From sequence record MT944117.1: a DNA stretch of 64,000 nt; one strand, given 5' to 3'. The stretch is from Escherichia phage PNJ1809-36. A model generated the notes under the pieces. The model did not search any database. It saw nothing but the letters and a program-made list of their open reading frames with translations, and was not told where the DNA came from. The number at the start of each line of letters is the position of its first letter. Within the stretch, counting starts at the first letter, position 1. Of the stretch, positions 8,214 through 20,366 are shown piece by piece. The translations under genes and the position numbers were made by a program.

Positions 8214-8322
8214 GGTGTCGCCCTTTCTTTGTTGTGCGCCCTGGTTGGCGCGGTAGAAAGATGATAGCCCTTTCTTTTATATATAGCAAGCAAAAAGAAA
8301 ATAAAAAAGATTGAAAAAGTGA

Positions 8323-8381
8323 TTGACGTTCGCCAGGTGGCGGCATAATATTTACCACGTAGGGCGGCAATGGTGCCGCTC
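8323..8381 (+). promoter_or_regulatory. early cassette promoter E1 with 5'-proximal stem-loop
   Basis: -35 TTGACG 8323-8328, -10 CATAAT/TAATAT ~8344-8351, stem-loop GGCGGCA-ATGG-TGCCGCT 8362-8379. Confidence 0.65.
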
Positions 8382-8400
8382 ATTATTTGGAGTTAAGATC

Positions 8401-8598
8401 ATGGCAACATTGCACATTGTGGCGAAAGCTGGACAAATCAACGTAATAGTAAACGGTTTTACTGAGTTCAGTCATCCCCAGGATGATCATGAAACGGTTT
8501 TATCTTTCATTGATTCACTGTTAGAAATGGGAGTAATTACAGAAGATCAGCATACTGCAAAATGCAAGCGCGTTAAGCAGATTGCAGGAATAGAATAA
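8401..8598 (+). CDS. hypothetical early protein (65 aa)
   Basis: ATG 8401 after SD GGAG; listed ORF 8323 start lies in promoter. Confidence 0.6.
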   Translation: MATLHIVAKAGQINVIVNGFTEFSHPQDDHETVLSFIDSLLEMGVITEDQHTAKCKRVKQIAGIE

Positions 8599-8603
8599 AA
8601 GTC

Positions 8604-8666
8604 TTGACAACAAGCCACAACCTGATAAGATGTATCACATAGGGCGGCGGAATGGTCCAGCCGCTC
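8604..8666 (+). promoter_or_regulatory. early cassette promoter E2 with 5'-proximal stem-loop
   Basis: -35 TTGACA 8604-8609, TGaTAAGAT ext -10 8623-8631, stem-loop GGCGGCGGA-ATGG-TCCAGCCGC 8642-8666. Confidence 0.65.
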
Positions 8667-8689
8667 ACAACAGAAGAGAGATTATAATC

Positions 8690-8962
8690 ATGGCATCATA
8701 TAGCGCAACAATGATCGTAGCTGGCACAACTGGTAAACCTATGAGCGGTGGCGGATCTTTCGCTAATATCAATATTGACGGGCGTTTATCCCTGGACGCA
8801 GCGATTGCCATTGCACGGGAAACATTTAAGAAAGAATGTAATTTCAACAAGCAAGATTATCTCGGTTTCGCTATTGAAAAAACCGCGCGCTTTGTTGATT
8901 ATAAAAGCCCGAAAATGGTTGATACTACACTAAAAGCGCAAGATGTAGCGTTTTTGCTTTAA
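8690..8962 (+). CDS. hypothetical early protein (90 aa)
   Basis: ATG 8690 after AGAAGAGAG SD-like leader. Confidence 0.6.
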   Translation: MASYSATMIVAGTTGKPMSGGGSFANINIDGRLSLDAAIAIARETFKKECNFNKQDYLGFAIEKTARFVDYKSPKMVDTTLKAQDVAFLL

Positions 8963-8965
8963 GGC

Positions 8966-9020
8966 TTGACATTAACGAATAATTTGTTAATATGTTACAT
9001 AAAGCGGGAATAGTTCCCGC
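8966..9020 (+). promoter_or_regulatory. early cassette promoter E3 with 5'-proximal stem-loop
   Basis: -35 TTGACA 8966-8971, TGtTAATAT 8985-8993, stem-loop GCGGGAA-TAG-TTCCCGC 9004-9020. Confidence 0.65.
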
Positions 9021-9038
9021 TATTTGTAAGGTGGTAGA

Positions 9039-9296
9039 ATGTTTTACATCAAATTAAAAGGTCACGTGATCGCGTTCAAAGATAACGCTTTTTACAGATT
9101 AGCAAAATATGCGTTAATACATCCCCACTATGTTTATATAAGGGGGCGTGATGAAATAAATATCTTTGATCAAACAACATGCGAGAACATCGAGATCCGC
9201 AAGGTTGGCGTACGTGATTATCGTACATCTTTCTACCCTTGCAAGGATTCAGCAAGTCTTTTTAAAGTATGCCAATTGTTGAAAAAAGGTGGTTAA
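9039..9296 (+). CDS. hypothetical early protein (85 aa)
   Basis: ORF; SD GGTGG. Confidence 0.6.
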   Translation: MFYIKLKGHVIAFKDNAFYRLAKYALIHPHYVYIRGRDEINIFDQTTCENIEIRKVGVRDYRTSFYPCKDSASLFKVCQLLKKGG

Positions 9297-9297
9297 T

Positions 9298-9855
9298 ATG
9301 GGCCGCGAATATGTGATCCAGTCTTGGGTAAAACATGAAGCAGATGATCCGCGCATCATTCCCGATCATCTTATCGATGAATCCACGGGATATAGCGGTG
9401 AGCAAATAGGTAACAGATTAGCACGTAGTAACGGCAACGTAAAAGCGCGTTATGTGCGCCCTGGCTGGCTGGCAAATGGTAACGCTGATTTATCCAGTGC
9501 GGAAGATGCGAGCGACGGCGCGAAAGATAATCCTTTGTACAAAGTTGATCCGGCTTTTCGTGTCCTGGATGAATACCCCAGCAAGATAGCGGCGCTTGAT
9601 GAAGCATTAGAAAGTAAGCGCATAACCTGGACCGCTTACAACATGGCAAAAAACGTACTTGATGGTAAATTGATTCAAGCCGAAAGAAAATTAGCCAAAA
9701 TTGCAGCCATAGCCCAGGAGGAAGACGAGGAGACAACGGAAGAGGAAGAGTACGAAGAGATCCCGCCGTTGTTGTGTATTGATGCTTTTCCTGATTATCA
9801 GCCGACAGAGGAAGAAAAAAGGATCGCACTAGAAAACTTTGAAAATAGTCTTTGA
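9298..9855 (+). CDS. hypothetical early protein with acidic C-terminus
   Basis: ATG 9298 after SD AAAGGTGG; listed 9289 start is GTG in same frame. Confidence 0.6.
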   Translation: MGREYVIQSWVKHEADDPRIIPDHLIDESTGYSGEQIGNRLARSNGNVKARYVRPGWLANGNADLSSAEDASDGAKDNPLYKVDPAFRVLDEYPSKIAALDEALESKRITWTAYNMAKNVLDGKLIQAERKLAKIAAIAQEEDEETTEEEEYEEIPPLLCIDAFPDYQPTEEEKRIALENFENSL

Positions 9856-9910
9856 CATATCGCCGCCACTGGTATAATATTTACCACGTAGGGCGGCAAT
9901 GGTGCCGCTC
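9852..9910 (+). promoter_or_regulatory. early cassette promoter E4 with 5'-proximal stem-loop
   Basis: -35 TTGACA 9852-9857, TGgTATAAT 9870-9878, stem-loop GGCGGCA-ATGG-TGCCGCT 9892-9909. Confidence 0.65.
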
Positions 9911-9937
9911 ATAGTGAAATTATGCAAGAGGTTTACA

Positions 9938-10033
9938 ATGATTAATAAAGAAAATAGCTTGACGGTTGGAACGATTAACGCTATCATTTTCGCCGTTCCA
10001 TTTTGGGTTGTAGTAGCGGCTATTATTTTCTAA
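9938..10033 (+). CDS. small hydrophobic peptide (31 aa)
   Basis: first ATG after E4 with SD AAGAGG; single hydrophobic helix. Confidence 0.4.
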   Translation: MINKENSLTVGTINAIIFAVPFWVVVAAIIF

Positions 10034-10041
10034 AAATATTC

Positions 10042-10102
10042 TTGACAACGTTTTTTAATCTGATAAGATGTATCACATAGGGCGGCGGAATACTTCCCCG
10101 CC
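10042..10102 (+). promoter_or_regulatory. early cassette promoter E5 with 5'-proximal stem-loop
   Basis: -35 TTGACA 10042-10047, TGaTAAGAT 10061-10069, stem-loop GGCGGCGGAA-TAC-TTCCCCGCC ~10080-10102. Confidence 0.65.
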
Positions 10103-10123
10103 AAAACAAAAAAGGGTAACACA

Positions 10124-10486
10124 ATGAGCAAGCAAATCAATACTATCATGTTTAATCTGGTATCTTTCCGCGATGATATGAAAAATTTACCACGTGAAAC
10201 GGTTGATATTCATGTTTCAGCTTATCGCGCCCTTATTGATATGTTACCGCTAAAACGTGATCAACATGCCGCTAATATGATGCTTAATGCTATGCTTAAA
10301 AAGATGATTCAAACGGATCTTACTCTGGCGTATGAGTATCAAGGGCGCTTATATGCTACTTACAACAAGGCGGTACCTGGTCTGGGAAGTACCGAAGAGT
10401 TGCACGGCTTAAACTTGGATCAGAACACTTGGGATAGTATGCGCCGCGTTATGGTATGGGCCGAAAGCGGTAAAATTTACGAATAA
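10124..10486 (+). CDS. hypothetical early protein (120 aa)
   Basis: ORF; SD AAAGGG. Confidence 0.65.
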   Translation: MSKQINTIMFNLVSFRDDMKNLPRETVDIHVSAYRALIDMLPLKRDQHAANMMLNAMLKKMIQTDLTLAYEYQGRLYATYNKAVPGLGSTEELHGLNLDQNTWDSMRRVMVWAESGKIYE

Positions 10487-10492
10487 AAACGG

Positions 10493-10552
10493 TTGACACT
10501 GTTTAAAATTCCGGTATAGTTTACCACATAGGGCGGGAAGTGGTTTCCCGCC
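10493..10552 (+). promoter_or_regulatory. early cassette promoter E6 with 5'-proximal stem-loop
   Basis: -35 TTGACA 10493-10498, -10 TATAGT 10515-10520, stem-loop GGCGGGAA-GTGGT-TTCCCGCC 10532-10552. Confidence 0.65.
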
Positions 10553-10574
10553 AACAATGAAAAAGGTTATCATC

Positions 10575-10940
10575 ATGGCTATTAATATTAATGTTTCCTC
10601 TTATGCTACCCTGGCTAACACGGCTAAAATTGAATTATCCAGCATTGAGGCGGTGCATATTAGCGCCCGTCGCTGGTTTCAACAGTCCTACGGTAACACA
10701 TATTTTTCTTTAATGGTTGACGTTGAGATCGGCGGTAAACTGATCGAGGTGGTTAACGTTCCGTTTCAATATGGCTATGGTGATCATTTTGATACCGTCG
10801 CCCTGGAAGAATTTAGCAAGGTTATCAACCTTGAGGGCAAGGAATTTTCACGCGGCGCGTATCTTTCCCGTTTTTGCCGTGACAATGGGATCACTGTATA
10901 CAGTCATGCAAGCGATGTTAAACGTAAAAAAGATCTATAA
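10575..10940 (+). CDS. hypothetical early protein (121 aa)
   Basis: ATG 10575 with SD AAAAGG; listed 10557 start abuts the hairpin with no SD. Confidence 0.6.
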   Translation: MAININVSSYATLANTAKIELSSIEAVHISARRWFQQSYGNTYFSLMVDVEIGGKLIEVVNVPFQYGYGDHFDTVALEEFSKVINLEGKEFSRGAYLSRFCRDNGITVYSHASDVKRKKDL

Positions 10941-10946
10941 AAAGCA

Positions 10947-11005
10947 TTGACAGCACGAATAAAAAGAGTAAACTGTATTACATAGAGAGCGGGAACACTT
11001 CCCGC
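10947..11005 (+). promoter_or_regulatory. early cassette promoter E7 with 5'-proximal stem-loop
   Basis: -35 TTGACA 10947-10952, -10 TAAACT 10969-10974, stem-loop GCGGGAA-CAC-TTCCCGC 10989-11005. Confidence 0.65.
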
Positions 11006-11029
11006 CTCACTGAAAAAGAGAGAAAAATC

Positions 11030-11269
11030 ATGGCTAAATCTAAAATGTACAACGGTCACAAAAACAAAACTCATTGGAATGTAAGCCTGTGGATTAATAA
11101 CGATGAGGGATTGTATCGGTTTGCATTGGGATTGATCAATGAGTGCGGTAATAAAGATCAGGCGGCTGATTTAATGTGCTACCGTTTGAAACAGGATGGA
11201 ATCACTACAACGCCAGACGGCTTTAAGTATAGTAAAACTGCAATCCGCGCCGCTATGGTTGGAATGTAA
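11030..11269 (+). CDS. hypothetical early protein (79 aa)
   Basis: ORF; SD AAGAGAG. Confidence 0.6.
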   Translation: MAKSKMYNGHKNKTHWNVSLWINNDEGLYRFALGLINECGNKDQAADLMCYRLKQDGITTTPDGFKYSKTAIRAAMVGM

Positions 11270-11282
11270 AGGAGACATAAAA

Positions 11283-11363
11283 ATGAAACATCGTTCGACC
11301 TATCTCACAAAACGTTTTAGCTTAGATCATAAATTGGGCTATTACGGAAGAAATAGAAAATAA
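11283..11363 (+). CDS. small basic peptide (26 aa)
   Basis: SD AAAGGAG + ATG 11283. Confidence 0.3.
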   Translation: MKHRSTYLTKRFSLDHKLGYYGRNRK

Positions 11364-11364
11364 T

Positions 11365-11424
11365 TTGACAACGTTTAAAATTAGTGTAAGATGTATCACA
11401 TAGGGCGGGAAGTGGTTTCCCGCC
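11365..11424 (+). promoter_or_regulatory. early cassette promoter E8 with 5'-proximal stem-loop
   Basis: -35 TTGACA 11365-11370, -10 TAAGAT 11387-11392, stem-loop GGCGGGAA-GTGGT-TTCCCGCC 11404-11424. Confidence 0.65.
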
Positions 11425-11446
11425 AACAACAGAGAGATTAAAGATT

Positions 11447-11674
11447 ATGGCTATCAATATTGTTCGTGTATCCGGCACCGTTGGCAGTTCCCAGGTTGTA
11501 GCAGTTGTAACAAACAAAAAGATTAATGATGTATGTGAGATCTTGAATAAGTGGGCTATTGCTAATTTTGGAGAATATGCGAGCGTCGAGTACATCGAAT
11601 CCTACCAGGTGCCAACCATCAGCCTAACCGATCTCAACGTTGATCGCCTGTTATGCCTGGATGAATTAATCTGA
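11447..11674 (+). CDS. hypothetical early protein (75 aa)
   Basis: ORF; leader AACAGAGAGATTAAAG. Confidence 0.6.
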   Translation: MAINIVRVSGTVGSSQVVAVVTNKKINDVCEILNKWAIANFGEYASVEYIESYQVPTISLTDLNVDRLLCLDELI

Positions 11675-11683
11675 AAAAGATTG

Positions 11684-11740
11684 TTGACACGGGAAAGAAA
11701 AAGAGTAAACTGTATTACGTAGGGCGGCAATGGTGCCGCT
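11684..11740 (+). promoter_or_regulatory. early cassette promoter E9 with 5'-proximal stem-loop
   Basis: -35 TTGACA 11684-11689, -10 TAAACT 11706-11711, stem-loop GGCGGCA-ATGG-TGCCGCT 11723-11740. Confidence 0.65.
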
Positions 11741-11764
11741 CACAACAGAAGAGAGATTATCACG

Positions 11765-11980
11765 ATGGCTAATATCCGCACACTGTTAAAAAATGCAAGT
11801 CAAGTTTTATTTTCAGATGACGAGTATTTCAATAAAGACATTACGGGCGTAAAAAGTCTTAAAGATGTAAAGGATGTAATAGGTATTCGCGGATCTTTAC
11901 GTAAGGGCGATTACTACGGTAACAAGGTGCAATATAAACTGTCAAAAGATTATGATTTTACTTTGACAATTATCAACTAA
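11765..11980 (+). CDS. hypothetical early protein (71 aa)
   Basis: ORF; leader CACAACAGAAGAGAGATTAT. Confidence 0.6.
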   Translation: MANIRTLLKNASQVLFSDDEYFNKDITGVKSLKDVKDVIGIRGSLRKGDYYGNKVQYKLSKDYDFTLTIIN

Positions 11981-11991
11981 GGGATCACAAA

Positions 11992-12150
11992 ATGAAAACT
12001 TGCCAATGTGGTAAAAAGTCTATCTCTGGTTTAAAACGTGGCGTTGCTCTTTGTCAATACCACTATAACGCTCAAACGTGGGGTAAGCAGTGGGCGGATC
12101 AGGTGGAAGAGGCAAAGAAAGAAAATATAAAAGTAGTTGCAAAGAAATAA
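11992..12150 (+). CDS. small Cys-containing protein (52 aa), possible zinc ribbon
   Basis: SD AAGGGA + ATG 11992; CQCG...LCQYHY. Confidence 0.4.
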   Translation: MKTCQCGKKSISGLKRGVALCQYHYNAQTWGKQWADQVEEAKKENIKVVAKK

Positions 12151-12198
12151 AAATAGAGTAAACTGTATTACATCAAGGCGGCGGAATGGTCCACCGCC
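12137..12198 (+). promoter_or_regulatory. early cassette promoter E10 with 5'-proximal stem-loop
   Basis: -35 TTGCAA 12137-12142, -10 TAAACT 12159-12164, two-helix stem-loop GGCGG-c-GGA-ATGG-TCC-a-CCGCC 12177-12198. Confidence 0.55.
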
Positions 12199-12222
12199 TA
12201 ACAAAGAGAAGAGGAAAATATC

Positions 12223-12390
12223 ATGATCACTTTCGCTACCCGTGAAGCCGCTCGCAACGTTGCACGTAAAGTTAACGCCGCCAACTTGGGCGCTACGCTT
12301 AAAGCCCCTGTAAAAGATGAATCAGGAAAATGGATCTTACCTGGTCTGCGTCATGCTGACAAGTTAGGTACTTTAAGCCTTAAAAAATAA
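12223..12390 (+). CDS. hypothetical early protein (55 aa)
   Basis: ATG 12223 after AGAGAAGAGG leader; N-terminus MITFA shared with next gene. Confidence 0.5.
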   Translation: MITFATREAARNVARKVNAANLGATLKAPVKDESGKWILPGLRHADKLGTLSLKK

Positions 12391-12393
12391 TCG

Positions 12394-12430
12394 TTGACTT
12401 TTCGTTATAGCGCCTTATAATGGGCGCTAT
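12394..12430 (+). promoter_or_regulatory. promoter E11 with perfect 8-bp inverted repeat flanking the -10
   Basis: -35 TTGACT 12394-12399, -10 TATAAT 12416-12421, IR ATAGCGCC (12406-12413) / GGCGCTAT (12423-12430). Confidence 0.6.
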
Positions 12431-12464
12431 AGAGAAGAGAAACCACTATTAACAAGGAAACATC

Positions 12465-12686
12465 ATGATTACTTTTGCTATTGTCGCCGTTGTTGCTGGT
12501 CAGGTTTACGTAAACGAGACATTTACTACAGAAGACAAGGCCGCAGGAGATATAACCGCCGTTTACAATGAGTGCAAGGCAGTAGAAAGGATGTTATCGC
12601 CTTGTATGCTAATGAGTGAACGTCAGGATGGGATAACAGTATTTACTAACATTGAAACAGGGTACCAAATGGTAGTAACAAAATAA
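12465..12686 (+). CDS. hypothetical early protein (73 aa)
   Basis: ORF; SD AAGGAAAC. Confidence 0.6.
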   Translation: MITFAIVAVVAGQVYVNETFTTEDKAAGDITAVYNECKAVERMLSPCMLMSERQDGITVFTNIETGYQMVVTK

Positions 12687-12689
12687 AGC

Positions 12690-12746
12690 TTGACACGTAT
12701 TTAATTTTCAGTAAACTGTTACACGTAGGGCGGGAATAGTTCCCGC
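12690..12746 (+). promoter_or_regulatory. early cassette promoter E12 with 5'-proximal stem-loop
   Basis: -35 TTGACA 12690-12695, -10 TAAACT 12712-12717, stem-loop GCGGGAA-TAG-TTCCCGC 12730-12746. Confidence 0.65.
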
Positions 12747-12764
12747 TAAAAAGAGAGAAAGACC

Positions 12765-13118
12765 ATGAAAGCACAAAATGCAATTAAAGAGTACATCCTT
12801 GCCGCTATCGATTTTAATGATTATGGTATTACAACCGAAAAAGAGAAGATCGCGGAATTGATGCGCCGTTTTAATTCCGAGTACTGGTACCCTGATAACC
12901 AATCACGTTTTAATTATAGTATTGTTAAAGCACTTGCATCATGGTTACAAGGTTTGCCATCAGATATTAATATCGCTTTCGAATATTGGGAAATTGATCG
13001 CTTGTTAACATCCTGGGGATACATTAAAGAGAATAGCAGCGATGATAAAATCCAACGAGAAAGGGAAAATTATTGGCTTTATATTGCAGGCGTGATCCTT
13101 GCTTGCTCTTATGAATGA
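12765..13118 (+). CDS. hypothetical early protein (117 aa)
   Basis: ORF; leader AAAGAGAGAAAGACC. Confidence 0.65.
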   Translation: MKAQNAIKEYILAAIDFNDYGITTEKEKIAELMRRFNSEYWYPDNQSRFNYSIVKALASWLQGLPSDINIAFEYWEIDRLLTSWGYIKENSSDDKIQRERENYWLYIAGVILACSYE

Positions 13119-13124
13119 TAAACC

Positions 13125-13178
13125 TTGACAATTTTACAAAACAGTTTAAATTAATAATATAGCGGCAATGGTGCCGCT
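13125..13178 (+). promoter_or_regulatory. early cassette promoter E13 with 5'-proximal stem-loop
   Basis: -35 TTGACA 13125-13130, -10 TAAATT ~13148-13153, stem-loop AGCGGCA-ATGG-TGCCGCT 13161-13178. Confidence 0.55.
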
Positions 13179-13197
13179 CATATAAAGAGGAAACAAA

Positions 13198-13344: not shown

Positions 13345-13352
13345 CATAACAA

Positions 13353-13378
13353 GGGCGCACCAAGCGCCCTTTCTTTTT
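13353..13378 (+). terminator. rho-independent terminator
   Basis: GGGCGC-ACCAA-GCGCCC followed by TTTCTTTTT; identical copy at 18808. Confidence 0.75.
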
Positions 13379-13399
13379 ACATGTAGAGGATAAACAAAA

Positions 13400-13585: not shown

Positions 13586-13591
13586 AAGTGG

Positions 13592-13650
13592 TTGACACCA
13601 TAACCGGACCTGTTAAACTGTATTACATCAGGCGGGGAATAGTTCCCCAC
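13592..13650 (+). promoter_or_regulatory. early cassette promoter E14 with 5'-proximal stem-loop
   Basis: -35 TTGACA 13592-13597, TGtTAAACT 13611-13619, stem-loop GGGGAA-TAG-TTCCCC 13634-13648. Confidence 0.65.
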
Positions 13651-13670
13651 CATACAAAAAGGTAAATATT

Positions 13671-13877
13671 ATGATCACCGCAAAACAAGAAAAAATCATT
13701 ATCGACGTTGCAGCCGTTGCCGCTATTGCTATTATCGGTACCTACTATGACACCGCGCGTCCTTCCTCCTTGCATGAGATCGCCGCCGTTGCATCAGTTG
13801 GCGTGCTGTTTTACGTTGGTAAACGTTATTTATCACCAATGATTAACAAGCTGACACCGTGGAAAAATAAAGGTTGA
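13671..13877 (+). CDS. small membrane protein (68 aa)
   Basis: ORF; two hydrophobic segments (VAAVAAIAIIGTYY, IAAVASVGVLFYVG). Confidence 0.6.
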   Translation: MITAKQEKIIIDVAAVAAIAIIGTYYDTARPSSLHEIAAVASVGVLFYVGKRYLSPMINKLTPWKNKG

Positions 13878-13929
13878 TCCTGTTTTATATTGTGTTATAG
13901 TTATCGTGTAGGGCGGCAATGGTGCCGCG
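13874..13929 (+). promoter_or_regulatory. early cassette promoter E15 with 5'-proximal stem-loop
   Basis: -35 TTGATC 13874-13879, TGtTATAGT 13893-13901, stem-loop GGCGGCA-ATGG-TGCCGC 13912-13929. Confidence 0.6.
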
Positions 13930-13948
13930 CCCCTTTGAGGATGCAATC

Positions 13949-14251: not shown

Positions 14252-14308
14252 TTGCAATCATTTTGAGATAGTGTATATTTAATTCATAGGGCGGCGGGAA
14301 TAGTTCCC
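14252..14308 (+). promoter_or_regulatory. early cassette promoter E16 with short 5'-proximal stem-loop
   Basis: -35 TTGCAA 14252-14257, -10 TATATT 14274-14279, stem-loop GGGAA-TAG-TTCCC 14296-14308. Confidence 0.5.
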
Positions 14309-14331
14309 AAAGCAAACGAGAGGATTACACG

Positions 14332-14743: not shown

Positions 14744-14744
14744 T

Positions 14745-14801
14745 TTGACAAGTCCGCGTAGTCTGATAATATGTATCTTGTAGCGCGGCAATGGTGCCGC
14801 T
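14745..14801 (+). promoter_or_regulatory. early cassette promoter E17 with 5'-proximal stem-loop
   Basis: -35 TTGACA 14745-14750, TGaTAATAT 14764-14772, stem-loop GCGGCA-ATGG-TGCCGC 14785-14800. Confidence 0.65.
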
Positions 14802-14821
14802 CACAAGAAGAGAGAAAAATC

Positions 14822-15106: not shown

Positions 15107-15107
15107 T

Positions 15108-15169
15108 TTGACAGTAGGCAAACAACGTAGTAAAGTTTATTACATAGAGCGGCGGAATGGTCCACCGCT
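15108..15169 (+). promoter_or_regulatory. early cassette promoter E18 with 5'-proximal stem-loop
   Basis: -35 TTGACA 15108-15113, -10 TAAAGT 15131-15136, two-helix stem-loop GCGG-c-GGA-ATGG-TCC-a-CCGC 15148-15169. Confidence 0.6.
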
Positions 15170-15191
15170 CACAACAGAAGAGAAACAAATC

Positions 15192-15362: not shown

Positions 15363-15369
15363 TTAATGA

Positions 15370-15390
15370 GGCGGGGGAGTATTCCCCGCC
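15370..15390 (+). ncRNA. promoter-less intercistronic GC stem-loop (same family as cassette hairpins)
   Basis: GGCGGGGGA-GTA-TTCCCCGCC, no T-run, no upstream -35/-10. Confidence 0.45.
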
Positions 15391-15409
15391 GTCAATAAAG
15401 AGGTAAATC

Positions 15410-15679: not shown

Positions 15680-15680
15680 T

Positions 15681-15742
15681 TTGACAACAATTATAAATCG
15701 GGTAGAATGTATTTCGTAGGGCGGGGCAATAAGGCAACGCCC
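15681..15742 (+). promoter_or_regulatory. early cassette promoter E19 with degenerate 5'-proximal stem-loop
   Basis: -35 TTGACA 15681-15686, -10 TAGAAT 15703-15708, GGGCG...CGCCC 15719-15742. Confidence 0.55.
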
Positions 15743-15760
15743 ATTAATGAGGGTAGAATC

Positions 15761-15865
15761 ATGTTAGAGAAAATTTTCACGGTCGTAGTAGTGGGCCTGG
15801 CGTTATCGGTTGGAGTGGTTGCGACTATGGCTAACATGATCCTATCTTCCCACGGTATCGGCTAA
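15761..15865 (+). CDS. small membrane peptide (34 aa)
   Basis: SD GAGGG + ATG 15761; hydrophobic helix. Confidence 0.4.
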   Translation: MLEKIFTVVVVGLALSVGVVATMANMILSSHGIG

Positions 15866-15879
15866 AAGAGAGACACAAC

Positions 15880-16266
15880 ATGAAAACAGAAATCATTATT
15901 GAAATCATCAACGGCTATAAAGAAGCCTTTATTTTTGCTGAATCAGCAAGGGATCATGAAGGTAATTTTATTGATAACTTAGACGATTATGATTTTTCTC
16001 CTAGCGCGGACGAACGGATCGCCCAGGATGTAACAGCCTTTATTAATGCTAATCTTGCCGCTATCTCTGAGGCAATGAGCGACGGCGCAACAGCCAACCA
16101 GATCGGGAATGATTTACATTTTACCCGTAACAGTCACGGCGTAGGCTTTTGGGATCGCCCTGAAATATACACCACTAACACAGCCAACCGCCTAACCAAT
16201 GCAGCTAAGTTTATGCCGAACGTGTCGGCTTACATTGGTGAAGATAATTTGATTTATATTGAATAA
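15880..16266 (+). CDS. hypothetical early protein (128 aa)
   Basis: ORF; SD AAAAGAGAG. Confidence 0.65.
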   Translation: MKTEIIIEIINGYKEAFIFAESARDHEGNFIDNLDDYDFSPSADERIAQDVTAFINANLAAISEAMSDGATANQIGNDLHFTRNSHGVGFWDRPEIYTTNTANRLTNAAKFMPNVSAYIGEDNLIYIE

Positions 16267-16272
16267 AAAGTA

Positions 16273-16329
16273 TTGACACAGATCGCCAGTGTGCTAATAT
16301 TTACCACGTAGGGCGGCAATGGTGCCGCC
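16273..16329 (+). promoter_or_regulatory. early cassette promoter E20 with 5'-proximal stem-loop
   Basis: -35 TTGACA 16273-16278, TGcTAATAT 16292-16300, perfect stem-loop GGCGGCA-ATGG-TGCCGCC 16312-16329. Confidence 0.65.
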
Positions 16330-16347
16330 GATAATGAGGAAAGTAAA

Positions 16348-16647
16348 ATGGAAACTATCGCTATTGTTACCGTAGAAAAACTGGTTGTTGGTGATGTATT
16401 CGCGTTAATGGTGCCTAACAGCAGCAAGCTGGGCGCTTATGAAGTAATGGATCATAAAAATGAATCATTTGGCGACGGTTGCACAATGGCGGTAAAATCC
16501 TTAAAGGATGGAATCATCCGTCAAGCTAATTGGCACAAAGGGAATCAAGTCGGATTAATATCAGCTAATTTCTTGCCAGAAGAGCAAACGTTAGACCAAC
16601 TATCAGGCGGTAAGACGTTAGCCGAACTACTGGAAACAGCGATCTAA
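16348..16647 (+). CDS. hypothetical early protein (99 aa)
   Basis: ORF; SD GAGGAAAG. Confidence 0.65.
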   Translation: METIAIVTVEKLVVGDVFALMVPNSSKLGAYEVMDHKNESFGDGCTMAVKSLKDGIIRQANWHKGNQVGLISANFLPEEQTLDQLSGGKTLAELLETAI

Positions 16648-16655
16648 TCAACAAA

Positions 16656-16669
16656 GGGCGGCAACGCCC
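16656..16669 (+). ncRNA. promoter-less intercistronic GNRA-tetraloop hairpin
   Basis: GGGCG-GCAA-CGCCC, no T-run. Confidence 0.4.
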
Positions 16670-16690
16670 CACATCAGAAAGGAAAAGATT

Positions 16691-16927
16691 ATGAGTATTG
16701 CAACAGTATTAACCGCCGTTAAAACCGCTGAATCATCCGGCTTGCATGTTGAGCTTATAGATCAACCAGGTGGCGATCTCCTTGTCCAGGTTTACCCGCC
16801 GAAAGTAGGAGATGATTATTATTGGTGCTATTCTGATACGTTCGAACAAGTAGACACGAAAGCGATCACGGCTTTTATTTTAAAAGCTGTTGAAGAAAAT
16901 AACTTTCATTATAACATCAATCAATAA
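16691..16927 (+). CDS. hypothetical early protein (78 aa)
   Basis: ORF; SD AAAGGAAAAG. Confidence 0.6.
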   Translation: MSIATVLTAVKTAESSGLHVELIDQPGGDLLVQVYPPKVGDDYYWCYSDTFEQVDTKAITAFILKAVEENNFHYNINQ

Positions 16928-16936
16928 ACTTTAAGC

Positions 16937-16952
16937 AGGGCGGTAACGCCCT
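16937..16952 (+). ncRNA. promoter-less intercistronic GNRA-tetraloop hairpin
   Basis: AGGGCG-GTAA-CGCCCT, no T-run. Confidence 0.4.
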
Positions 16953-16982
16953 ATTAAACGCAATAGGAAGAGGATAGAAAGC

Positions 16983-17273
16983 ATGAAAAAGATGATCGCA
17001 GTAGTTGCCCTGGTTGTTGGTATTAACGCGCCTGCAATGGCTAATGATTTGCCTGAATCCATCACGTTAACCGATATCAACGCGGTAAACCGGATCGGTG
17101 TTAATTATCGCCTATGCCTTGCCGCTAAAACTTTCCAGGACGGCACGACAGAATACCACGGATTCGAGGGTATCCGCTGCGGTGAGCTTGCACGCGACCT
17201 TAAGGAAGATCCAGACCTTGAGGCCATACCGATGACCGTAAACGGTAAAGCTTACGTAAACCGCCAACAATGA
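16983..17273 (+). CDS. secreted/periplasmic small protein with signal peptide
   Basis: MKKMIAVVALVVGINAPAMA signal-like N-terminus; SD GGAAGAGG. Confidence 0.65.
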   Translation: MKKMIAVVALVVGINAPAMANDLPESITLTDINAVNRIGVNYRLCLAAKTFQDGTTEYHGFEGIRCGELARDLKEDPDLEAIPMTVNGKAYVNRQQ

Positions 17274-17284
17274 GAAAGGTAATC

Positions 17285-17404
17285 ATGACAATGGGGATCA
17301 TAGTAGCAACGCTGGCGCTGATCCCCTTCCTGGTTGAATATGTGCTGATTAGTGTTGTCCTGGTAGTCAGTGACTTATTGGAAACGGTTGGCACCTGGTT
17401 TTAA
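17285..17404 (+). CDS. small membrane peptide (39 aa)
   Basis: SD GAGAAAGG + ATG 17285; hydrophobic throughout. Confidence 0.4.
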   Translation: MTMGIIVATLALIPFLVEYVLISVVLVVSDLLETVGTWF

Positions 17405-17416
17405 GGAGTAATAAAA

Positions 17417-17608
17417 ATGAATGCAGAACAAGTTAGAAAGGTATTAGCAGCGTTGCGGTATCACAACCATAGCAAGGTAAAGAATGATCCTGATTATGTG
17501 GATTCAAGCCTGGAAGAAGACACATTGCAAGCTATAAGCCATATGCAAGAATTGTTTAAGCGTATGACAGAGAAAAACAGATCTGATTATATAGGTGACG
17601 AGATCTAA
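17417..17608 (+). CDS. hypothetical early protein (63 aa)
   Basis: ORF; SD AAGGAG. Confidence 0.6.
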   Translation: MNAEQVRKVLAALRYHNHSKVKNDPDYVDSSLEEDTLQAISHMQELFKRMTEKNRSDYIGDEI

Positions 17609-17620
17609 TCCTTACAAAAA

Positions 17621-17646
17621 CAGGGCTTGCTTTTGTCCTGTTTTTT
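17621..17646 (+). terminator. putative rho-independent terminator
   Basis: CAGGGC-loop-GTCCTG (one G-U) followed by TTTTTT. Confidence 0.45.
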
Positions 17647-17785
17647 GTTATACTTATTGAACGGGCGGCACCTGGTAGCAGGGGAAGATAATCACCGGAC
17701 GACCCCGCTATATATTGATAGCTAACATCTATCAAACAACAAAACATCAAAGAAATAAACTATCAAATCTTTACAATGCTACCTA

Positions 17786-17846
17786 TTGACACCGGATCAC
17801 GCTTACATTATTATTTATCACGTAGGGCGAGCAATACAGCAAGCCC
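17786..17846 (+). promoter_or_regulatory. early cassette promoter E21 with degenerate 5' stem-loop
   Basis: -35 TTGACA 17786-17791, -10 TATTAT 17809-17814, conserved TTATCACGTAGGGCG initial sequence. Confidence 0.55.
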
Positions 17847-17863
17847 ACAAAGAGGAAAATAAA

Positions 17864-18232
17864 ATGAGCAAATCAGCAATTAAAGCACTTGAAAAAGCAC
17901 AAGAAGTGATCGCAACGTCAACCACTGGCGCAAAGGTTAATCTCGTTGGTTATCTGACAGATGAAACTATCCGTAAAAATTGGCGTAATGCTGATTTACT
18001 GGCTTGCTTATTGATTAATAGTGTCGCTAATGCTTTCCAGTGTGAAACAGCCGAGAGCCTGGAGGCAAACTTGTTCGACAGTATGGATCAAGCCATTGAA
18101 ACCTATATTCAATCAAATTTAGATAGCTGGAACAATAAAACATGGCCCGACAACTTACGCGATACAACTGATCAACTGATCCGCCTTGCCGTGATGGTTG
18201 AACGCGATAACGTTCACAACCGCACAAAGTAA
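17864..18232 (+). CDS. hypothetical early protein (122 aa)
   Basis: ATG 17864 after SD AAAGAGGAAAA. Confidence 0.65.
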   Translation: MSKSAIKALEKAQEVIATSTTGAKVNLVGYLTDETIRKNWRNADLLACLLINSVANAFQCETAESLEANLFDSMDQAIETYIQSNLDSWNNKTWPDNLRDTTDQLIRLAVMVERDNVHNRTK

Positions 18233-18243
18233 GATTATACAAG

Positions 18244-18263
18244 GGGCGCACTAAGCGCCCTTT
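18244..18263 (+). terminator. putative terminator hairpin (short T-tract)
   Basis: GGGCGC-ACTAA-GCGCCC followed by TTT. Confidence 0.4.
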
Positions 18264-18290
18264 AACGTAAAGAAATGTAAATAATGCGCT

Positions 18291-18327
18291 ATCCCCTATT
18301 GACAGGGGATCGGCGTTATATTATATT
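18291..18327 (+). promoter_or_regulatory. promoter E22 with 7-bp inverted repeat straddling the -35
   Basis: IR ATCCCCT (18291-18297) / AGGGGAT (18305-18311) around TTGACA 18299-18304; -10 TATATT 18322-18327. Confidence 0.55.
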
Positions 18328-18372
18328 TAACTCACTGGCAGCAAACAACGAAACGAAACAAAGGACAACACC

Positions 18373-18792
18373 ATGAACATTAAATCAAATAATCCAGCTT
18401 ACTCCTTCGATAACGCTTTTTGTCACGGTAGCGCCGCCAAAGGCTTCGAAATCGATGGTAAATTGGTTATCGTGAACGTTGACGGGGAAGAGGTTGCAGT
18501 ATATCCGGTAAACGATGTTAAAAGCCGTTTACAATGCCGCATGGATGTTACCGCATATCAGCTTGATCCGGTCCGTGTAGTTGCCCTGGTATTAGAGGAA
18601 GAGATCAAAGCAATGCATCATAGTAATAAGTTTATTGGTGACGCGCAGGATAATATGAACGTTTGCCGCCATAAAGTTAATGAAGCCTTGAAAGAATGCG
18701 GTTTTAAGGATCTGATGATTAAACGTGATGAAAAATTCCGCTTTCGTAATGACCTGGCAAACCGGATCTACTCAATCTATGAAGCGTTATAA
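18373..18792 (+). CDS. hypothetical protein (139 aa)
   Basis: ORF; SD AAAGGA. Confidence 0.65.
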   Translation: MNIKSNNPAYSFDNAFCHGSAAKGFEIDGKLVIVNVDGEEVAVYPVNDVKSRLQCRMDVTAYQLDPVRVVALVLEEEIKAMHHSNKFIGDAQDNMNVCRHKVNEALKECGFKDLMIKRDEKFRFRNDLANRIYSIYEAL

Positions 18793-18807
18793 TTGACAAC
18801 AAAACAA

Positions 18808-18833
18808 GGGCGCACCAAGCGCCCTTTCTTTTT
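18808..18833 (+). terminator. rho-independent terminator closing the early array
   Basis: GGGCGC-ACCAA-GCGCCC followed by TTTCTTTTT. Confidence 0.75.
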
Positions 18834-20366
18834 GCCCGAATAATGTTGATAGATTCCGCCTATGAAAAACCGACACAGAACAAAACTGAATAGATCGCGG
18901 TATCGAGCTAATCAACCATTAAACGAATAACCATACCTCCCAGGGTAACAGGTTGTTAGAGAGCCATTTAGAGCGGTTAAAATCGATCAACAACCAACAA
19001 CAAACCATCAAAAACACCCTTTTACCTCCTTTCTAGTGCAATGATAACCATTATCATCTATCCATGTTTATCTATGCAATATAAGTGCATAACTATAATG
19101 TTGATAATAGTTCGCAACAACTAACTAACCAACAACCTAAAACAATAAGCAAACTAATCATAATCAAAGGAATAATAGCAAGATGATTGATAACGACAAA
19201 CAATCAAACCATGATGAATACTAAGCAAGATAACGATAACACGACAAAACAACCAACTAACGAACAATAACAAACGAAACCATTAAAATAACAACTATTA
19301 GCAAAATAGTGCCTGAATGAAATCATTACAAAACGAATCATTCACAGGATCATCATTAGCACGCTATGCCGGACACATAGCGAGCTAATAATAAGCCAAC
19401 TACACCCCAACAATCATAACCATCGGTGATGGTTATTTCTTGTTACTGCGTAGCTTGCAATAATTGCAAGCGTAATGACGCTTACACTTATTGCGCTGGC
19501 TTATTATTAGCATTATATGTAATTACCAAGATCATAACATTAGCGCAATAACAATAATCATTGTGGTAATTACAAGATGAAATAATCGCTATCGCTCAAA
19601 GATTATTAGCAAGATGAATAATTGCACGTAGCAACATGAGCGAATAGCGACAGGTTGCATAGTGTGCACATAGATGTACACGCAGTGTATAAACATACAG
19701 GAAAATAAAGGCTAATCTTTTGGGGGCGAATACTATCGCGTAGCGATATGTTGAGCATCTTCTCTTAAACGTAAATAAAATCAGAAAATTCTTGATTTAT
19801 TTTAATTTTTATGTTAATAAACGTTTAAATAATAATCATTCTCATATGAATAATAGTCTGCTTGTCATGAGCGGGATTAGTTGACAATGTTCCGTCATAT
19901 GATGAGGTTGCCAAACCATTGATAAATAAGTGTTTGTGTGATTTATAATCAAGCGGCCCACCTTGTCGCTATGTTGGCATGAGCCTTGCATAAGTCATTG
20001 AATACGAATGATAATTATTCTCATTCGCATGATATTTGGGAATTGTCGCTGCGTGGACCTGACGGCCCGAAAATTCGCGTTAAGCACTTCTTACGTATGT
20101 GCCATGATTTTTGCCATATGATATTGATTCTACTAGATATTCTTGCCATGATTGCCATGAAACAGGGTGTCCCGAAATAATCTCTCCCTGTAGATATTTT
20201 GGGTTACTTTTTATACAAGAGTGGGGTGTCAAAAATAATTGGTATATATGGGATAATTGATAGGAATCCCCTATGATAATTCGATTGTAATTCCCTAAGA
20301 TTGATCGTATGATGTTGGTGATTGATGATTGCCATGAAAGATGGCTAACGATGAGAGGAGATTATC
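18834..20366. other. gene-free 1.5-kb region, strand-skewed A+C-rich (CAA/AAC-rich, G/T-poor on plus strand)
   Basis: no credible ORF; long tracts such as aaccaacaacaaaccatcaaaaacaccc and acaaaacaaccaactaacgaacaataacaaacg. Confidence 0.7.
20100..20337. repeat. five copies of TTGCCATGA-type motif including a perfect tandem pair
   Basis: TGCCATGA at ~20100, TTGCCATATGA ~20111, TTGCCATGATTGCCATGA 20143-20160, TTGCCATGA 20329-20337. Confidence 0.6.

What the first reader, a model, noticed from the sequence alone, without database searches (positions are those of the whole stretch)
8300..18835. Array of ~22 near-identical early promoters each launching a transcript with a conserved GC-rich 5' stem-loop
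About 35 small genes in 10.5 kb are organised as mono- or bicistronic cassettes. Each has a strong sigma70-like promoter (TTGACA, 16-17 nt, TGn-TAAGAT/TAATAT/TAAACT), a conserved initial sequence (TTACCACGTAGGG / GTATTACATAG) and a 6-9 bp GC stem-loop within ~10 nt of the -10, then a conserved leader (CACAACAGAAGAGAGATTAT) and ATG. Stem sequences differ between copies but stay complementary (GCA-ATGG-TGC vs GGA-ATGG-TCC; GCGGGAA-TAG-TTCCCGC; GGCGGGAA-GTGGT-TTCCCGCC), which argues for selection on a structure rather than a protein-binding sequence. A 5'-terminal hairpin would protect mRNA from 5'-end-dependent decay; alternatively it is a recognition element for a phage or host RNA-binding or anti-termination factor. 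I do not recognise this architecture from any described phage.
Basis: seen in the sequence. Interest (0 to 1): 0.85.

Follow-up and report, generated by a model that had tools for sequence, protein, structure and literature searches.

The report
Phage early-gene promoter–hairpin cassette array
A coliphage packs about 34 tiny genes of unknown function behind 22 copies of a strong host-type promoter, 20 of them followed at once by a GC hairpin; this is a new variant of the "promoter–stem-loop" cassettes known from T4-like phages, with the hairpin at the start of the transcript instead of inside the promoter.

Summary
Window 8300-18835 (+ strand) holds 22 sigma70-type promoters and 34 small genes of unknown function. 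In 20 cassettes a GC hairpin (about -8 to -17 kcal/mol) starts 10-12 nt after the -10 element. A purine-rich leader of 15-27 nt and the ATG follow.

The window is a Phapecoctavirus (phAPEC8/ESCO13-like coliphage). In a whole relative genome the motif occurs only in this one array, the last coding block before the genome end. The same layout is present in phi92 and in an rV5-like phage.

The stems differ but stay complementary, including a clean C-G to G-C swap. Eighteen of 20 lack a T-run, so they are not canonical terminators.

Gene indels and replacements between relatives often end in the cassettes. Three have overlapping ends, the footprint of cassette-to-cassette recombination.

In phage phi1 the stem-loop lies inside the promoter; here it is transcribed.

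Best reading: a mobile early-gene expression cassette whose 5'-terminal hairpin shields the mRNA from RppH and RNase E. The recombination role is shown by comparison. The RNA role is inferred, because no start-site data exist. Verdict: new variant of a known kind, moderate interest.

The parts
8323..8400 (+). Cassette c8323: TTGACG-17-TAATAT, hairpin 8362-8381 (GGGCGGCA-ATGG-TGCCGCTC), leader, then ATG at 8401
   Evidence: model hit 42.3 bits. One of two cassettes with a T-rich 3' flank.
8604..8689 (+). Cassette c8604: TTGACA-16-TAAGAT (TG-extended), hairpin 8642-8666, leader CACAACAGAAGAGAGATTAT
8966..9038 (+). Cassette c8966: TTGACA-16-TAATAT, hairpin 9003-9021 (AGCGGGAA-TAG-TTCCCGCT)
9852..9937 (+). 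Cassette c9852: TTGACA-17-TAATAT, hairpin 9891-9910
10042..10123 (+). Cassette c10042: TTGACA-16-TAAGAT, hairpin 10081-10102 (one bulge)
10493..10574 (+). Cassette c10493: TTGACA-16-TATAGT, hairpin 10532-10552 (GGCGGGAA-GTGGT-TTCCCGCC). Site of a gene indel with overlapping ends in two relatives.
10947..11029 (+). Cassette c10947: TTGACA-16-TAAACT, hairpin 10985-11008
11365..11446 (+). Cassette c11365: TTGACA-16-TAAGAT, hairpin 11404-11424
11684..11764 (+). Cassette c11684: TTGACA-16-TAAACT, hairpin 11722-11741 (extends to 11719-11743)
   Evidence: best model hit, 50.4 bits
12137..12222 (+). Cassette c12137: degenerate -35 (TTGCAA) lying inside the end of gene 11992-12150, -10 TAAACT, hairpin 12176-12199. 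The upstream gene is an insertion relative to five relatives.
12394..12464 (+). Cassette c12394: TTGACT-16-TATAAT. The hairpin 12406-12431 (TATAGCGCC / GGCGCTATA) encloses the -10 element, which is the classical T4-type PeSL layout.
   Evidence: compare phi1
12690..12764 (+). Cassette c12690: TTGACA-16-TAAACT, hairpin 12729-12747
13125..13197 (+). Cassette c13125: TTGACA-16-TAAATT, hairpin 13161-13178
13592..13670 (+). Cassette c13592: TTGACA-16-TAAACT, hairpin 13631-13651 (one C.A mismatch)
13874..13948 (+). Cassette c13874: weak -35 (TTGATC) overlapping the stop codon of the upstream gene, -10 TATAGT, hairpin 13911-13931
14252..14331 (+). Cassette c14252: TTGCAA-16-TATATT, decayed hairpin 14291-14313 (-7.8 kcal/mol)
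14745..14821 (+). Cassette c14745: TTGACA-16-TAATAT, hairpin 14780-14804
15108..15191 (+). Cassette c15108: TTGACA-17-TAAAGT, hairpin 15147-15170
15681..15760 (+). Cassette c15681: TTGACA-16-TAGAAT, hairpin 15719-15742 (internal loop)
16273..16347 (+). Cassette c16273: TTGACA-16-TAATAT, hairpin 16312-16329. Site of a gene indel with overlapping ends in SKA64.
17786..17863 (+). Cassette c17786: TTGACA-17-TATTAT, hairpin 17822-17848. Site of a gene indel with overlapping ends in ESCO13 and ECO340P2.
18299..18372 (+). Promoter c18299: TTGACA-17-TATATT, with no hairpin (0 kcal/mol)
15370..15390 (+). Intergenic GC hairpin with no promoter (GGCGGGGGA-GTA-TTCCCCGCC)
   Evidence: read; the orthologue in ESCO13 is a weak model hit
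16657..16670 (+). Intergenic hairpin with no promoter: GGGCG-GCAA-CGCCC
16937..16952 (+). Intergenic hairpin with no promoter: AGGGCG-GTAA-CGCCCT
13351..13379 (+). Canonical intrinsic terminator (hairpin plus T-run) inside the array. The next gene (13400) has no promoter of its own.
17616..17655 (+). Canonical intrinsic terminator (11-bp stem plus T-run)
18242..18262 (+). Variant copy of the terminator hairpin. It forms the left boundary of gene 18373-18792, which is absent from phage anhysbys.
18806..18834 (+). Terminator that closes the array. Its hairpin is identical to the one at 13351.

Best explanation
The region is the terminal array of small early genes of a Phapecoctavirus. It is built from repeats of one roughly 80-90 bp regulatory cassette. 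Each cassette has an A-rich upstream stretch, a near-consensus host sigma70 promoter, a conserved start region CAC(A/G)TAG, a GC hairpin that would occupy about +3/+5 to +25 of the transcript, and an unstructured purine-rich leader with the ribosome-binding site.

It is a PeSL-type mobile regulatory cassette that differs from the T4-type in where the stem-loop sits: here it is transcribed, there it lies inside the promoter.

It acts on two levels.
- DNA level (shown by comparison). The repeated cassettes provide homology for recombination. This adds, removes or swaps single genes together with their own expression signals, and it converts one cassette's hairpin class into another.
- RNA level (inferred). 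The hairpin leaves 0-4 unpaired nucleotides at the triphosphate 5' end. RppH and the 5' sensor of RNase E therefore cannot engage, and the roughly 20 short early mRNAs are protected from 5'-end-dependent decay while the ribosome-binding site stays open.
- A possible second RNA role (speculative). In read-through transcripts from the cassette upstream, the same hairpin could act as a barrier to 3' exonucleases.
For: Identity. The region is 93% covered at 95% identity by Phapecoctavirus Ro121c4YLVW.

Cassette anatomy. 22 promoters; in 20 the hairpin core starts 10-12 nt after the -10. The hairpins are far above the 1% background.

Structure selection. 42 distinct hairpins among 121 cassettes in 9 loci. 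95.6% of cells are paired against 88.9% when shuffled. One pair is C-G in 31 sequences and G-C in 26, with none broken. The inner helices CA/TG, GGA/TCC, GAA/TTC, GAAA/TTTC, GGAA/TTCC and TGG/CCA are all complementary.

Conservation of layout. phi92 has 12 such cassettes. The rV5-like phage nimi has about 6, with different flanking sequence but hairpin cores mostly at 11-13 nt.

Confinement. Hits of my hairpin covariance model (R1) fall only in the array, both in the window and in 150 kb of a relative.

Full 5' UTR folds. The hairpin is kept in all 20. There are 0-4 unpaired 5' nt (median 3), the UTR is 38-51 nt, and the ribosome-binding site is about 68% unpaired.

Not terminators. 18 of 20 have no T-run, while four canonical terminators with T-runs exist in the same array.

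5' structures are known to stabilise E. coli mRNA because RppH and RNase E need single-stranded 5' ends (PMC3997798).

Recombination. 19 distinct indel or replacement events against 6 relatives; 13 have an end in a cassette; 3 have ends overlapping by 17-37 nt inside one cassette. The orthologous cassette c8604 carries a different hairpin class in ESCO13.

PeSL precedent: PMC2839356.
Against: No transcription start site has been mapped for any phage of this group. If transcription starts at position 6 rather than 8 after the -10, five nucleotides would be unpaired, which weakens protection.

Three similar hairpins sit in intergenic spots with no promoter (15370, 16657, 16937). The hairpin may therefore have a role that does not depend on being 5'-terminal.

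The outer stem GGCGG/CCGCC never varies. This fits sequence recognition or homogenisation as well as it fits structure.

The preference for the sense strand is weak: 15 G.U against 7 C.A, and 22 against 10 hairpins more stable on the + strand.

The breakpoint enrichment is confounded. Whole-gene indels must end between genes, and cassettes make up 76% of the non-coding sequence.

"Early" timing is inferred from promoter type and position only.

The copies are paralogues, so there are about 6-10 independent hairpin types, not 20.
Confidence: 0.55

Rival explanations
1. The hairpin is a transcription attenuator or terminator, as originally proposed for PeSL stem-loops. It would damp read-through from the strong promoters upstream, and perhaps transcripts of its own promoter, so that each gene is insulated and not over-expressed.
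For: One PeSL stem-loop cut lacZ expression as strongly as rrnB T1 (PMC2839356). Premature termination in 5' UTRs is common in Pseudomonas phages (PMC10914365). Hairpins also occur in intergenic spots with no promoter. Twenty strong tandem promoters plausibly need insulation.
Against: 18 of 20 hairpins are followed by A/purine-rich sequence, not a T-run. The same array uses four canonical terminators where a T-run is present. Because the hairpin lies downstream of its own start site, termination there would abort the cassette's own mRNA after about 25-30 nt. The distance to the -10 is fixed at 10-12 nt, which a terminator for upstream genes does not require.
Confidence: 0.18
2. The hairpin with its conserved TAGGGCGG...CCGC core is a tag read by a trans-acting factor, such as a phage or host RNA-binding protein or endoribonuclease. 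The factor would switch all of the roughly 20 early transcripts off, or on, together.
For: Three to four outer stem pairs and the TAG just upstream never vary among 65 distinct sequences from three genera. The motif is confined to one temporal block of genes.
Against: In the more distant rV5-like phage the stems and flanks do vary (GGGGGGGC, GGGGCAA). Loop sequence and loop length (3-6 nt) vary. No candidate factor was identified: the ten largest array proteins have no known family. The invariance can be explained by recent cassette homogenisation.
Confidence: 0.12
3. The hairpin has no RNA function. It is a DNA palindrome that spreads with the cassette, or promotes its recombination, for example as a cruciform or a replication-slippage hotspot.
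For: [quoted passage not shown] Strand asymmetry is weak. The terminator hairpins at 18242 and 18806 also flank a gene indel.
Against: Complementarity is kept across at least 6 different inner-helix sequences and across two subfamilies with diverged flanks. The fixed position relative to the start site and the consistently open ribosome-binding site downstream are not needed for recombination. Homology alone, without a palindrome, would be enough for recombination.
Confidence: 0.1
4. The inverted repeat is a DNA operator for a dimeric repressor that shuts the early promoters off.
For: The repeat lies just downstream of the start site, where a bound protein would block RNA polymerase. The outer half-sites GGCGG/CCGCC are invariant.
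Against: The distance between the invariant half-sites varies from 8 to 14 nt, and the inner arms differ between copies. That is incompatible with one rigid dimer.
Confidence: 0.03

Closest known systems
PeSL (promoter-early stem-loop) cassettes of T4-type phages RB49, phi1, PST and nt-1 (Arbiol 2010, PMC2839356; Comeau 2014, PMC4122927)
   Same: Both are repeated intergenic cassettes with an AT-rich upstream stretch, a consensus sigma70 promoter, a GC stem-loop (G-rich 5' arm, C-rich 3' arm), a conserved leader and a ribosome-binding site. Both are concentrated in a block of small genes of unknown function. In both, gene indels between close relatives are bounded by the cassettes.
   Different: In phi1 the stem-loop lies between -35 and -10 or encloses the -10. 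Only 1 of the 16 strong-promoter regions I scanned has it downstream. Here 20 of 22 have it at +10-12 after the -10, that is, in the transcript; only c12394 has the T4-type layout. The phage lineage differs (Stephanstirmvirinae and Vequintavirinae, not Straboviridae) and there is no sequence similarity. Terminator activity and mini-circles were shown for PeSLs and are untested here.
5'-terminal stabiliser stem-loops of E. coli mRNAs (ompA, papA; reviewed in PMC3997798)
   Same: A stable hairpin at or within a few nucleotides of the 5' end, followed by an open leader and ribosome-binding site.
   Different: Those are single host genes with measured half-lives. Here the position relative to the 5' end rests on a predicted start site, and the element is multiplied about 20-fold as part of a promoter cassette.
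5' stem-loop of phage T7 late transcripts (phi10 leader; from my own knowledge, not checked here)
   Same: A phage promoter whose transcript starts with a GC stem-loop, widely used to raise mRNA stability.
   Different: T7 uses its own RNA polymerase and a few promoters. It is not a recombining array of host-type promoters.
Rho-independent terminators
   Same: A GC-rich hairpin of 7-10 bp.
   Different: There is no T-run in 18 of 20, and the hairpin lies downstream of a promoter rather than at an operon end.
Promoter-hairpin arrays of Cluster B3/B4 mycobacteriophages (seen here)
   Same: TTGACA-16/17-TATTGT or TAACTT, about 11 nt, hairpin GGCGGGACGGACCCGCC, ribosome-binding site, ATG; repeated 7-8 times per locus in the right arm of the genome.
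   Different: An unrelated high-GC phage lineage and host. The spacing was imposed by my search pattern, so it is not independent evidence. I found no description of it in the one literature search I made.

Membership tests
PeSL cassettes (T4-type phages) | Repeated intergenic motif with a sigma70-consensus promoter and an AT-rich stretch upstream of the -35 | tested here: met
   22 promoters, 17 with a perfect TTGACA, and an A-rich consensus upstream
PeSL cassettes (T4-type phages) | An adjacent stable GC stem-loop, typically G-tract then C-tract | tested here: met
   20 hairpins of -8 to -17 kcal/mol, 5' arm GGGCGG(G), 3' arm (C)CCGCC
PeSL cassettes (T4-type phages) | Stem-loop placed within or overlapping the promoter (the common classes), so that it acts on upstream transcripts only | tested here: not met
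   20 of 22 lie 10-12 nt downstream of the -10; only c12394 encloses the -10. In phi1, 12 of the 16 regions have it inside or over the promoter and 1 has it downstream.
PeSL cassettes (T4-type phages) | Concentrated in a hyperplastic block of small genes of unknown function | tested here: met
   34 genes of 26-185 aa; the ten largest match only PHROGs of unknown function and no Pfam family; the motif is confined to this block
PeSL cassettes (T4-type phages) | Indels and replacements between close relatives are bounded by the cassettes, with a single cassette in one phage against cassette-gene-cassette in another | tested here: met
   13 of 19 events have an end in a cassette; 3 events have 17-37 nt overlaps inside one cassette. 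The enrichment over other non-coding DNA is not established.
PeSL cassettes (T4-type phages) | The stem-loop terminates transcription in vivo, and cassette mini-circles form | not testable with these tools
   This needs reporter assays and inverse PCR. The sequence lacks T-runs in 18 of 20.
5'-terminal mRNA stabiliser stem-loop | The hairpin begins within a few unpaired nucleotides of the transcript 5' end | tested here: inconclusive
   0-4 unpaired nt if transcription starts 8 nt after the -10. The start site is predicted, not measured.
5'-terminal mRNA stabiliser stem-loop | Removing the hairpin shortens mRNA half-life in an RppH/RNase E-dependent way | not testable with these tools
   Experimental
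Rho-independent terminator | A GC hairpin immediately followed by a T-run | tested here: not met
   Only c8323 passes the terminator scan. c8966 has a T-rich flank. The other 18 flanks are A/purine-rich.
Any curated RNA family (Rfam 15) | A match at the gathering score | tested here: not met
   No match in the whole window
N4-type hairpin promoters for a virion RNA polymerase | A DNA hairpin upstream of the start site, recognised by a phage-encoded RNA polymerase | tested here: not met
   The hairpin lies downstream of a complete sigma70 promoter. No RNA polymerase is annotated in 150 kb of a close relative (annotation only).

The most novel reading that the evidence does not exclude
The hairpin is more than a passive 5' cap. 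It would be a shared RNA tag, with an invariant TAG-GGCGG...CCGC core, that marks the roughly 20 early transcripts as one post-transcriptional regulon. A dedicated phage or host factor would read it, for co-ordinated shut-off at the early-to-middle switch or for exemption from a phage-induced general mRNA decay. Unrelated phages (T4-type, rV5/phi92/phAPEC8-type, Cluster B mycobacteriophages) would have arrived at the same promoter-plus-hairpin module independently.
Probability: 0.12. Interest if true: 0.8.

Novelty: new variant of a known kind. Interest (0 to 1): 0.5.

Why it matters
It extends the PeSL idea beyond T4-like phages to two further subfamilies of large coliphages used in phage therapy, and possibly to mycobacteriophages. 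The idea is that small mobile regulatory cassettes carry their own promoter and drive gene shuffling in the variable regions of phage genomes.

What the PeSL stem-loop does is still unsettled. Here the hairpin sits uniformly at the very start of the transcript and has no T-run, which separates the two candidate functions (5'-end protection against termination) more cleanly than the T4-type layouts do. Simple reporters can therefore test the question directly.

The array is also a ready-made natural library of about 20 strong promoter/5'-UTR parts with graded hairpins. It marks about 34 early genes of unknown function as likely host-takeover or anti-defence genes that are being exchanged between phages.

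Tried and rejected
- Rfam at gathering scores found nothing in the window.
- MAFFT plus RNAalifold on the 20 hairpin segments predicted no structure, because MAFFT misaligned the 3' arms of stems of different length. I therefore built a covariance model from a gap-free seed of 7 natural class-A sequences plus 2 artificial shortened sequences, which I added to allow G-C at pair 7. The model was used only to find and align natural copies. The pair counts are on natural sequences, but on an alignment fitted to the model, so they lean towards the structure.
- Strand asymmetry (G.U against C.A, + strand against - strand stability) favours the sense strand only weakly. I do not rely on it.
- Breakpoint enrichment has a nominal p of 7e-4 against the whole region. 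It is confounded because cassettes make up 76% of the non-coding DNA. I rely on the overlapping-end junctions instead.
- The IMG/VR pattern scan returned mostly single chance matches. Only the mycobacteriophage contigs had multiple copies.
- Literature searches for start-site or RNA-seq data on Phapecoctavirus, Vequintavirus, rV5 or phi92 found none. The rV5 paper lists promoters but stops 7-8 nt after the -10 and does not mention hairpins. The ESCO13, phi92 and other records annotate only genes and ribosome-binding sites here.
- PHROGs and Pfam gave no function for the array proteins or for the divergent gene 7947-8213.
- Considered and rejected: intrinsic terminator, N4-type hairpin promoter, and operator for a rigid dimer (see the rival explanations and membership tests).

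Full report
WHAT THE WINDOW IS. Window 8300-18835 is 93% covered at 95% identity by Escherichia phage vB_EcoM-Ro121c4YLVW, and it matches more than 200 other phAPEC8/ESCO13-like coliphages (genus Phapecoctavirus, subfamily Stephanstirmvirinae). None of the records I inspected annotates promoters or stem-loops here; they list only genes and ribosome-binding sites.

CHECK OF THE OBSERVATION: PROMOTERS AND GENES. The pattern TTGACA-N15-18-TAWNNT occurs 28 times in the window against 3.4 expected, and 16 of these lie on the + strand of the region. With a relaxed -35 I count 22 promoters. Seventeen have a perfect TTGACA, the spacing is 16-17 nt, the -10 is TAnnnT, and an A-rich stretch lies upstream of the -35. 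Only 6 carry TG before the -10. I count 34 genes of 26-185 aa.

CHECK OF THE OBSERVATION: HAIRPINS. In 20 of the 22 promoters a GC hairpin core begins 10-12 nt after the last base of the -10. In five copies two outer pairs extend this to 8-9 nt. Nineteen have dG <= -11 kcal/mol and one, a decayed copy, has -7.8. Only 1.05% of 33-nt windows elsewhere in the window reach -11. Of the two exceptions, c12394 has a hairpin that encloses the -10 element, and c18299 has none. The initial sequence CAC(A/G)TAG-GGCGG is conserved: there are 13 exact TAGGGCGG, all on the + strand inside the region. The others share a purine-rich, ATC-ATG-type leader.

IS A STRUCTURE SELECTED? Scanning the window and eight related loci gave 121 cassettes with 42 distinct hairpin sequences. 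My covariance model of the hairpin finds copies only inside the array in the 64 kb window, and only inside the homologous array in 150 kb of a relative. On the model-fitted alignment of 65 distinct sequences:
- 95.6% of cells are paired, against 88.9% in shuffles and at most 75% when the partner is slid.
- One pair is C-G in 31 sequences and G-C in 26, with none broken.
- Another pair is G-C in 30, G-U in 24 and A-U in 5.

The inner helix exists as CA/TG, GGA/TCC, GAA/TTC, GAAA/TTTC, GGAA/TTCC and TGG/CCA, always complementary, and loops are 3-6 nt. So complementarity is selected.

There are three caveats. The alignment is fitted to the model. The copies are paralogues, so there are perhaps 6-10 independent types. 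The outer pairs GGCGG/CCGCC never vary, which says nothing about structure and leaves room for sequence constraint or homogenisation. Preference for the sense strand is weak.

IS THE LAYOUT CONSERVED ELSEWHERE? Phage phi92 (genus Justusliebigvirus) has 12 such cassettes in the homologous block, which ends about 1.1 kb before its right terminal repeat. The rV5-like phage nimi (a different subfamily, Vequintavirinae) has about 6. Their flanking sequence differs (for example TAAACT-agacaCAAAA-GGCGGGAATGTTTCCCGCC), but the hairpin cores mostly start 11-13 nt after the -10. The window's non-coding stretch 18819-19475 is homologous to the phi92 stretch that precedes the terminal repeat. The array is therefore the last coding block before the physical end of the genome.

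WHAT THE HAIRPIN IS NOT. Eighteen of the 20 hairpins are followed by A/purine-rich sequence rather than a T-run. The same array contains four canonical terminators with T-runs, at 13351, 17616, 18242 and 18806. Rfam has no match. A complete sigma70 promoter precedes each hairpin, and no phage RNA polymerase is annotated in a close relative, so these are not N4-type hairpin promoters. The distance between the invariant outer arms varies from 8 to 14 nt, which argues against an operator for one rigid dimer.

LIKELY RNA ROLE (INFERRED). E. coli RNA polymerase normally starts 7-8 nt after the -10. The conserved CAC(A/G) offers pyrimidine-purine steps at positions 6 and 8. Folding each full 5' UTR from position 8 to 30 nt past the ATG gives the following:
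- The hairpin is kept in all 20.
- There are 0-4 unpaired 5' nucleotides (median 3; zero where G-U-A pairs with the C-A-C after the stem).
- The UTR is 38-51 nt long.
- The hairpin ends 15-27 nt before the ATG.
- The ribosome-binding region is about 68% unpaired.

This is the anatomy of a 5'-terminal stabiliser. RppH and the 5' sensor of RNase E both need single-stranded 5' ends, which explains the long-known stabilising effect of 5' secondary structure (PMC3997798). No start-site data exist for this phage group in the library I could search, so this step is inference. Three hairpins with no promoter, at 15370, 16657 and 16937, hint at an additional role that does not depend on the 5' end, for example as a barrier to 3' exonucleases.

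DNA ROLE (SHOWN BY COMPARISON). I aligned the region with six relatives and found 19 distinct indel or replacement events. Thirteen have at least one end in a cassette, and 18 of 38 ends lie in cassettes, which cover 23% of the region. This enrichment is confounded, because whole-gene indels must end between genes and cassettes make up 76% of the non-coding DNA.

Three events are more telling, at c10493, c16273 and c17786. Their two ends overlap by 17-37 nt within one cassette, while the relative carries an extra 239-294 bp. In other words, one phage has cassette-gene-cassette where the other has a single cassette. That is the footprint of recombination between cassettes.

Three further observations fit this:
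- Gene 11992-12150 is an insertion that overwrote the -35 of c12137.
- The orthologous cassette c8604 carries a different hairpin class in ESCO13.
- Three cassettes share an identical 34-nt stretch from the -10 into the hairpin.

COMPARISON WITH WHAT IS KNOWN. Arbiol et al. 2010 and Comeau et al. 2014 described PeSLs in T4-type phages. These are repeated cassettes of an AT-rich stretch, a sigma70 promoter and a G-tract/C-tract stem-loop. They are concentrated in hyperplastic regions of small genes of unknown function, mediate modular shuffling and mini-circle formation, and their stem-loop was proposed, and in one case shown, to terminate transcription.

The present array meets the promoter, stem-loop, gene-content and shuffling criteria. 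It differs in the placement of the stem-loop. I scanned the phi1 hyperplastic region directly. In 12 of 16 regions with strong promoters the stem-loop lies between -35 and -10 or encloses the -10, and only one has it downstream. Here 20 of 22 have it downstream, at a fixed distance, so it is part of the cassette's own transcript. Only c12394 has the T4-type layout. The lineage is also different and there is no sequence similarity. The rV5 genome paper lists the promoters but not the hairpins.

VERDICT. The proposed 5'-protection role is the best-supported RNA function but is unproven. The claim that the architecture is undescribed is wrong. I file this as a new variant of a known kind, of moderate interest (0.5). 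Confidence in the composite explanation is 0.55. Within that, I put about 0.85 on the identification as a PeSL-like recombining promoter-hairpin cassette array, and about 0.45 on 5'-end protection as the hairpin's main function.

Noticed in passing
L018-L021 (Mycobacterium phage Phaedrus), L022 (Hosp), L071 (KayaCho): Cluster B3/B4 mycobacteriophages carry arrays of 7-8 copies per locus of TTGACA-16/17-TATTGT or TAACTT, about 11 nt, hairpin GGCGGGACGGACCCGCC, ribosome-binding site and ATG. This is the same promoter-plus-5'-hairpin architecture in an unrelated, high-GC lineage. The spacing was imposed by my search pattern. One literature search found no description.
   Followed up: partly
window 12394-12431: Promoter c12394 has a 9-bp hairpin (TATAGCGCC / GGCGCTATA) whose loop is the -10 element TATAAT. 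This is the classical T4-type PeSL layout, sitting in the middle of the downstream-hairpin array. Ro121c4YLVW has a 315-bp insertion at this spot.
   Followed up: partly
window 15370-15390, 16657-16670, 16937-16952: GC hairpins between genes with no promoter and no T-run. Two have GNRA-type loops (GCAA, GTAA). They may be decayed cassettes or intercistronic RNA stability or processing elements.
   Followed up: no
window 13351-13371, 18242-18262, 18806-18826: The 21-nt terminator hairpin AAGGGCGCACCAAGCGCCCTT is identical at 13351 and 18806, with a variant at 18242. Gene 18373-18792, between the last two copies, is absent from phage anhysbys with a 24-nt overlap, so terminator copies also act as recombination sites. 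Gene 13400-13585 follows terminator 13351 with no promoter of its own, so that terminator must be leaky.
   Followed up: partly
window 18835-20366: About 1.5 kb of non-coding DNA, A+C-rich at first and with scattered short direct and inverted repeats. It is homologous to the stretch before the right terminal repeat of phi92. The window probably spans the end-to-end junction of a circularised assembly, with the physical genome end near 19.8-20.1 kb.
   Followed up: partly
window 59874 (- strand): The only promoter outside the array with a comparable downstream hairpin: TTGACT-16-TATAAT, then GGGAGGAGGTGAGTCCTCCC (-14.9 kcal/mol) starting 13 nt after the -10. Its sequence is unrelated to the array family.
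   Followed up: no
database records: Records named Campylobacter phage (A145, A110a, A141), Pseudomonas phage PsgM04F, Acinetobacter phage vB_AbaM_ABPW7 and Klebsiella phage ZCKP1 match this coliphage array or cassette closely: about 88-98% identity for the last three, and 76-88% over one cassette for the Campylobacter records. The host labels look doubtful.
   Followed up: no
window 8401-18792 (+ strand genes): Most start codons sit in a shared context, purine-rich run then (A)ATC-ATG. Several of the 34 products are very small hydrophobic peptides of 31-39 aa (9938, 14332, 15761, 17285), and one has a signal-peptide-like N-terminus (16983). The ten largest match only PHROGs of unknown function.
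   Followed up: partly
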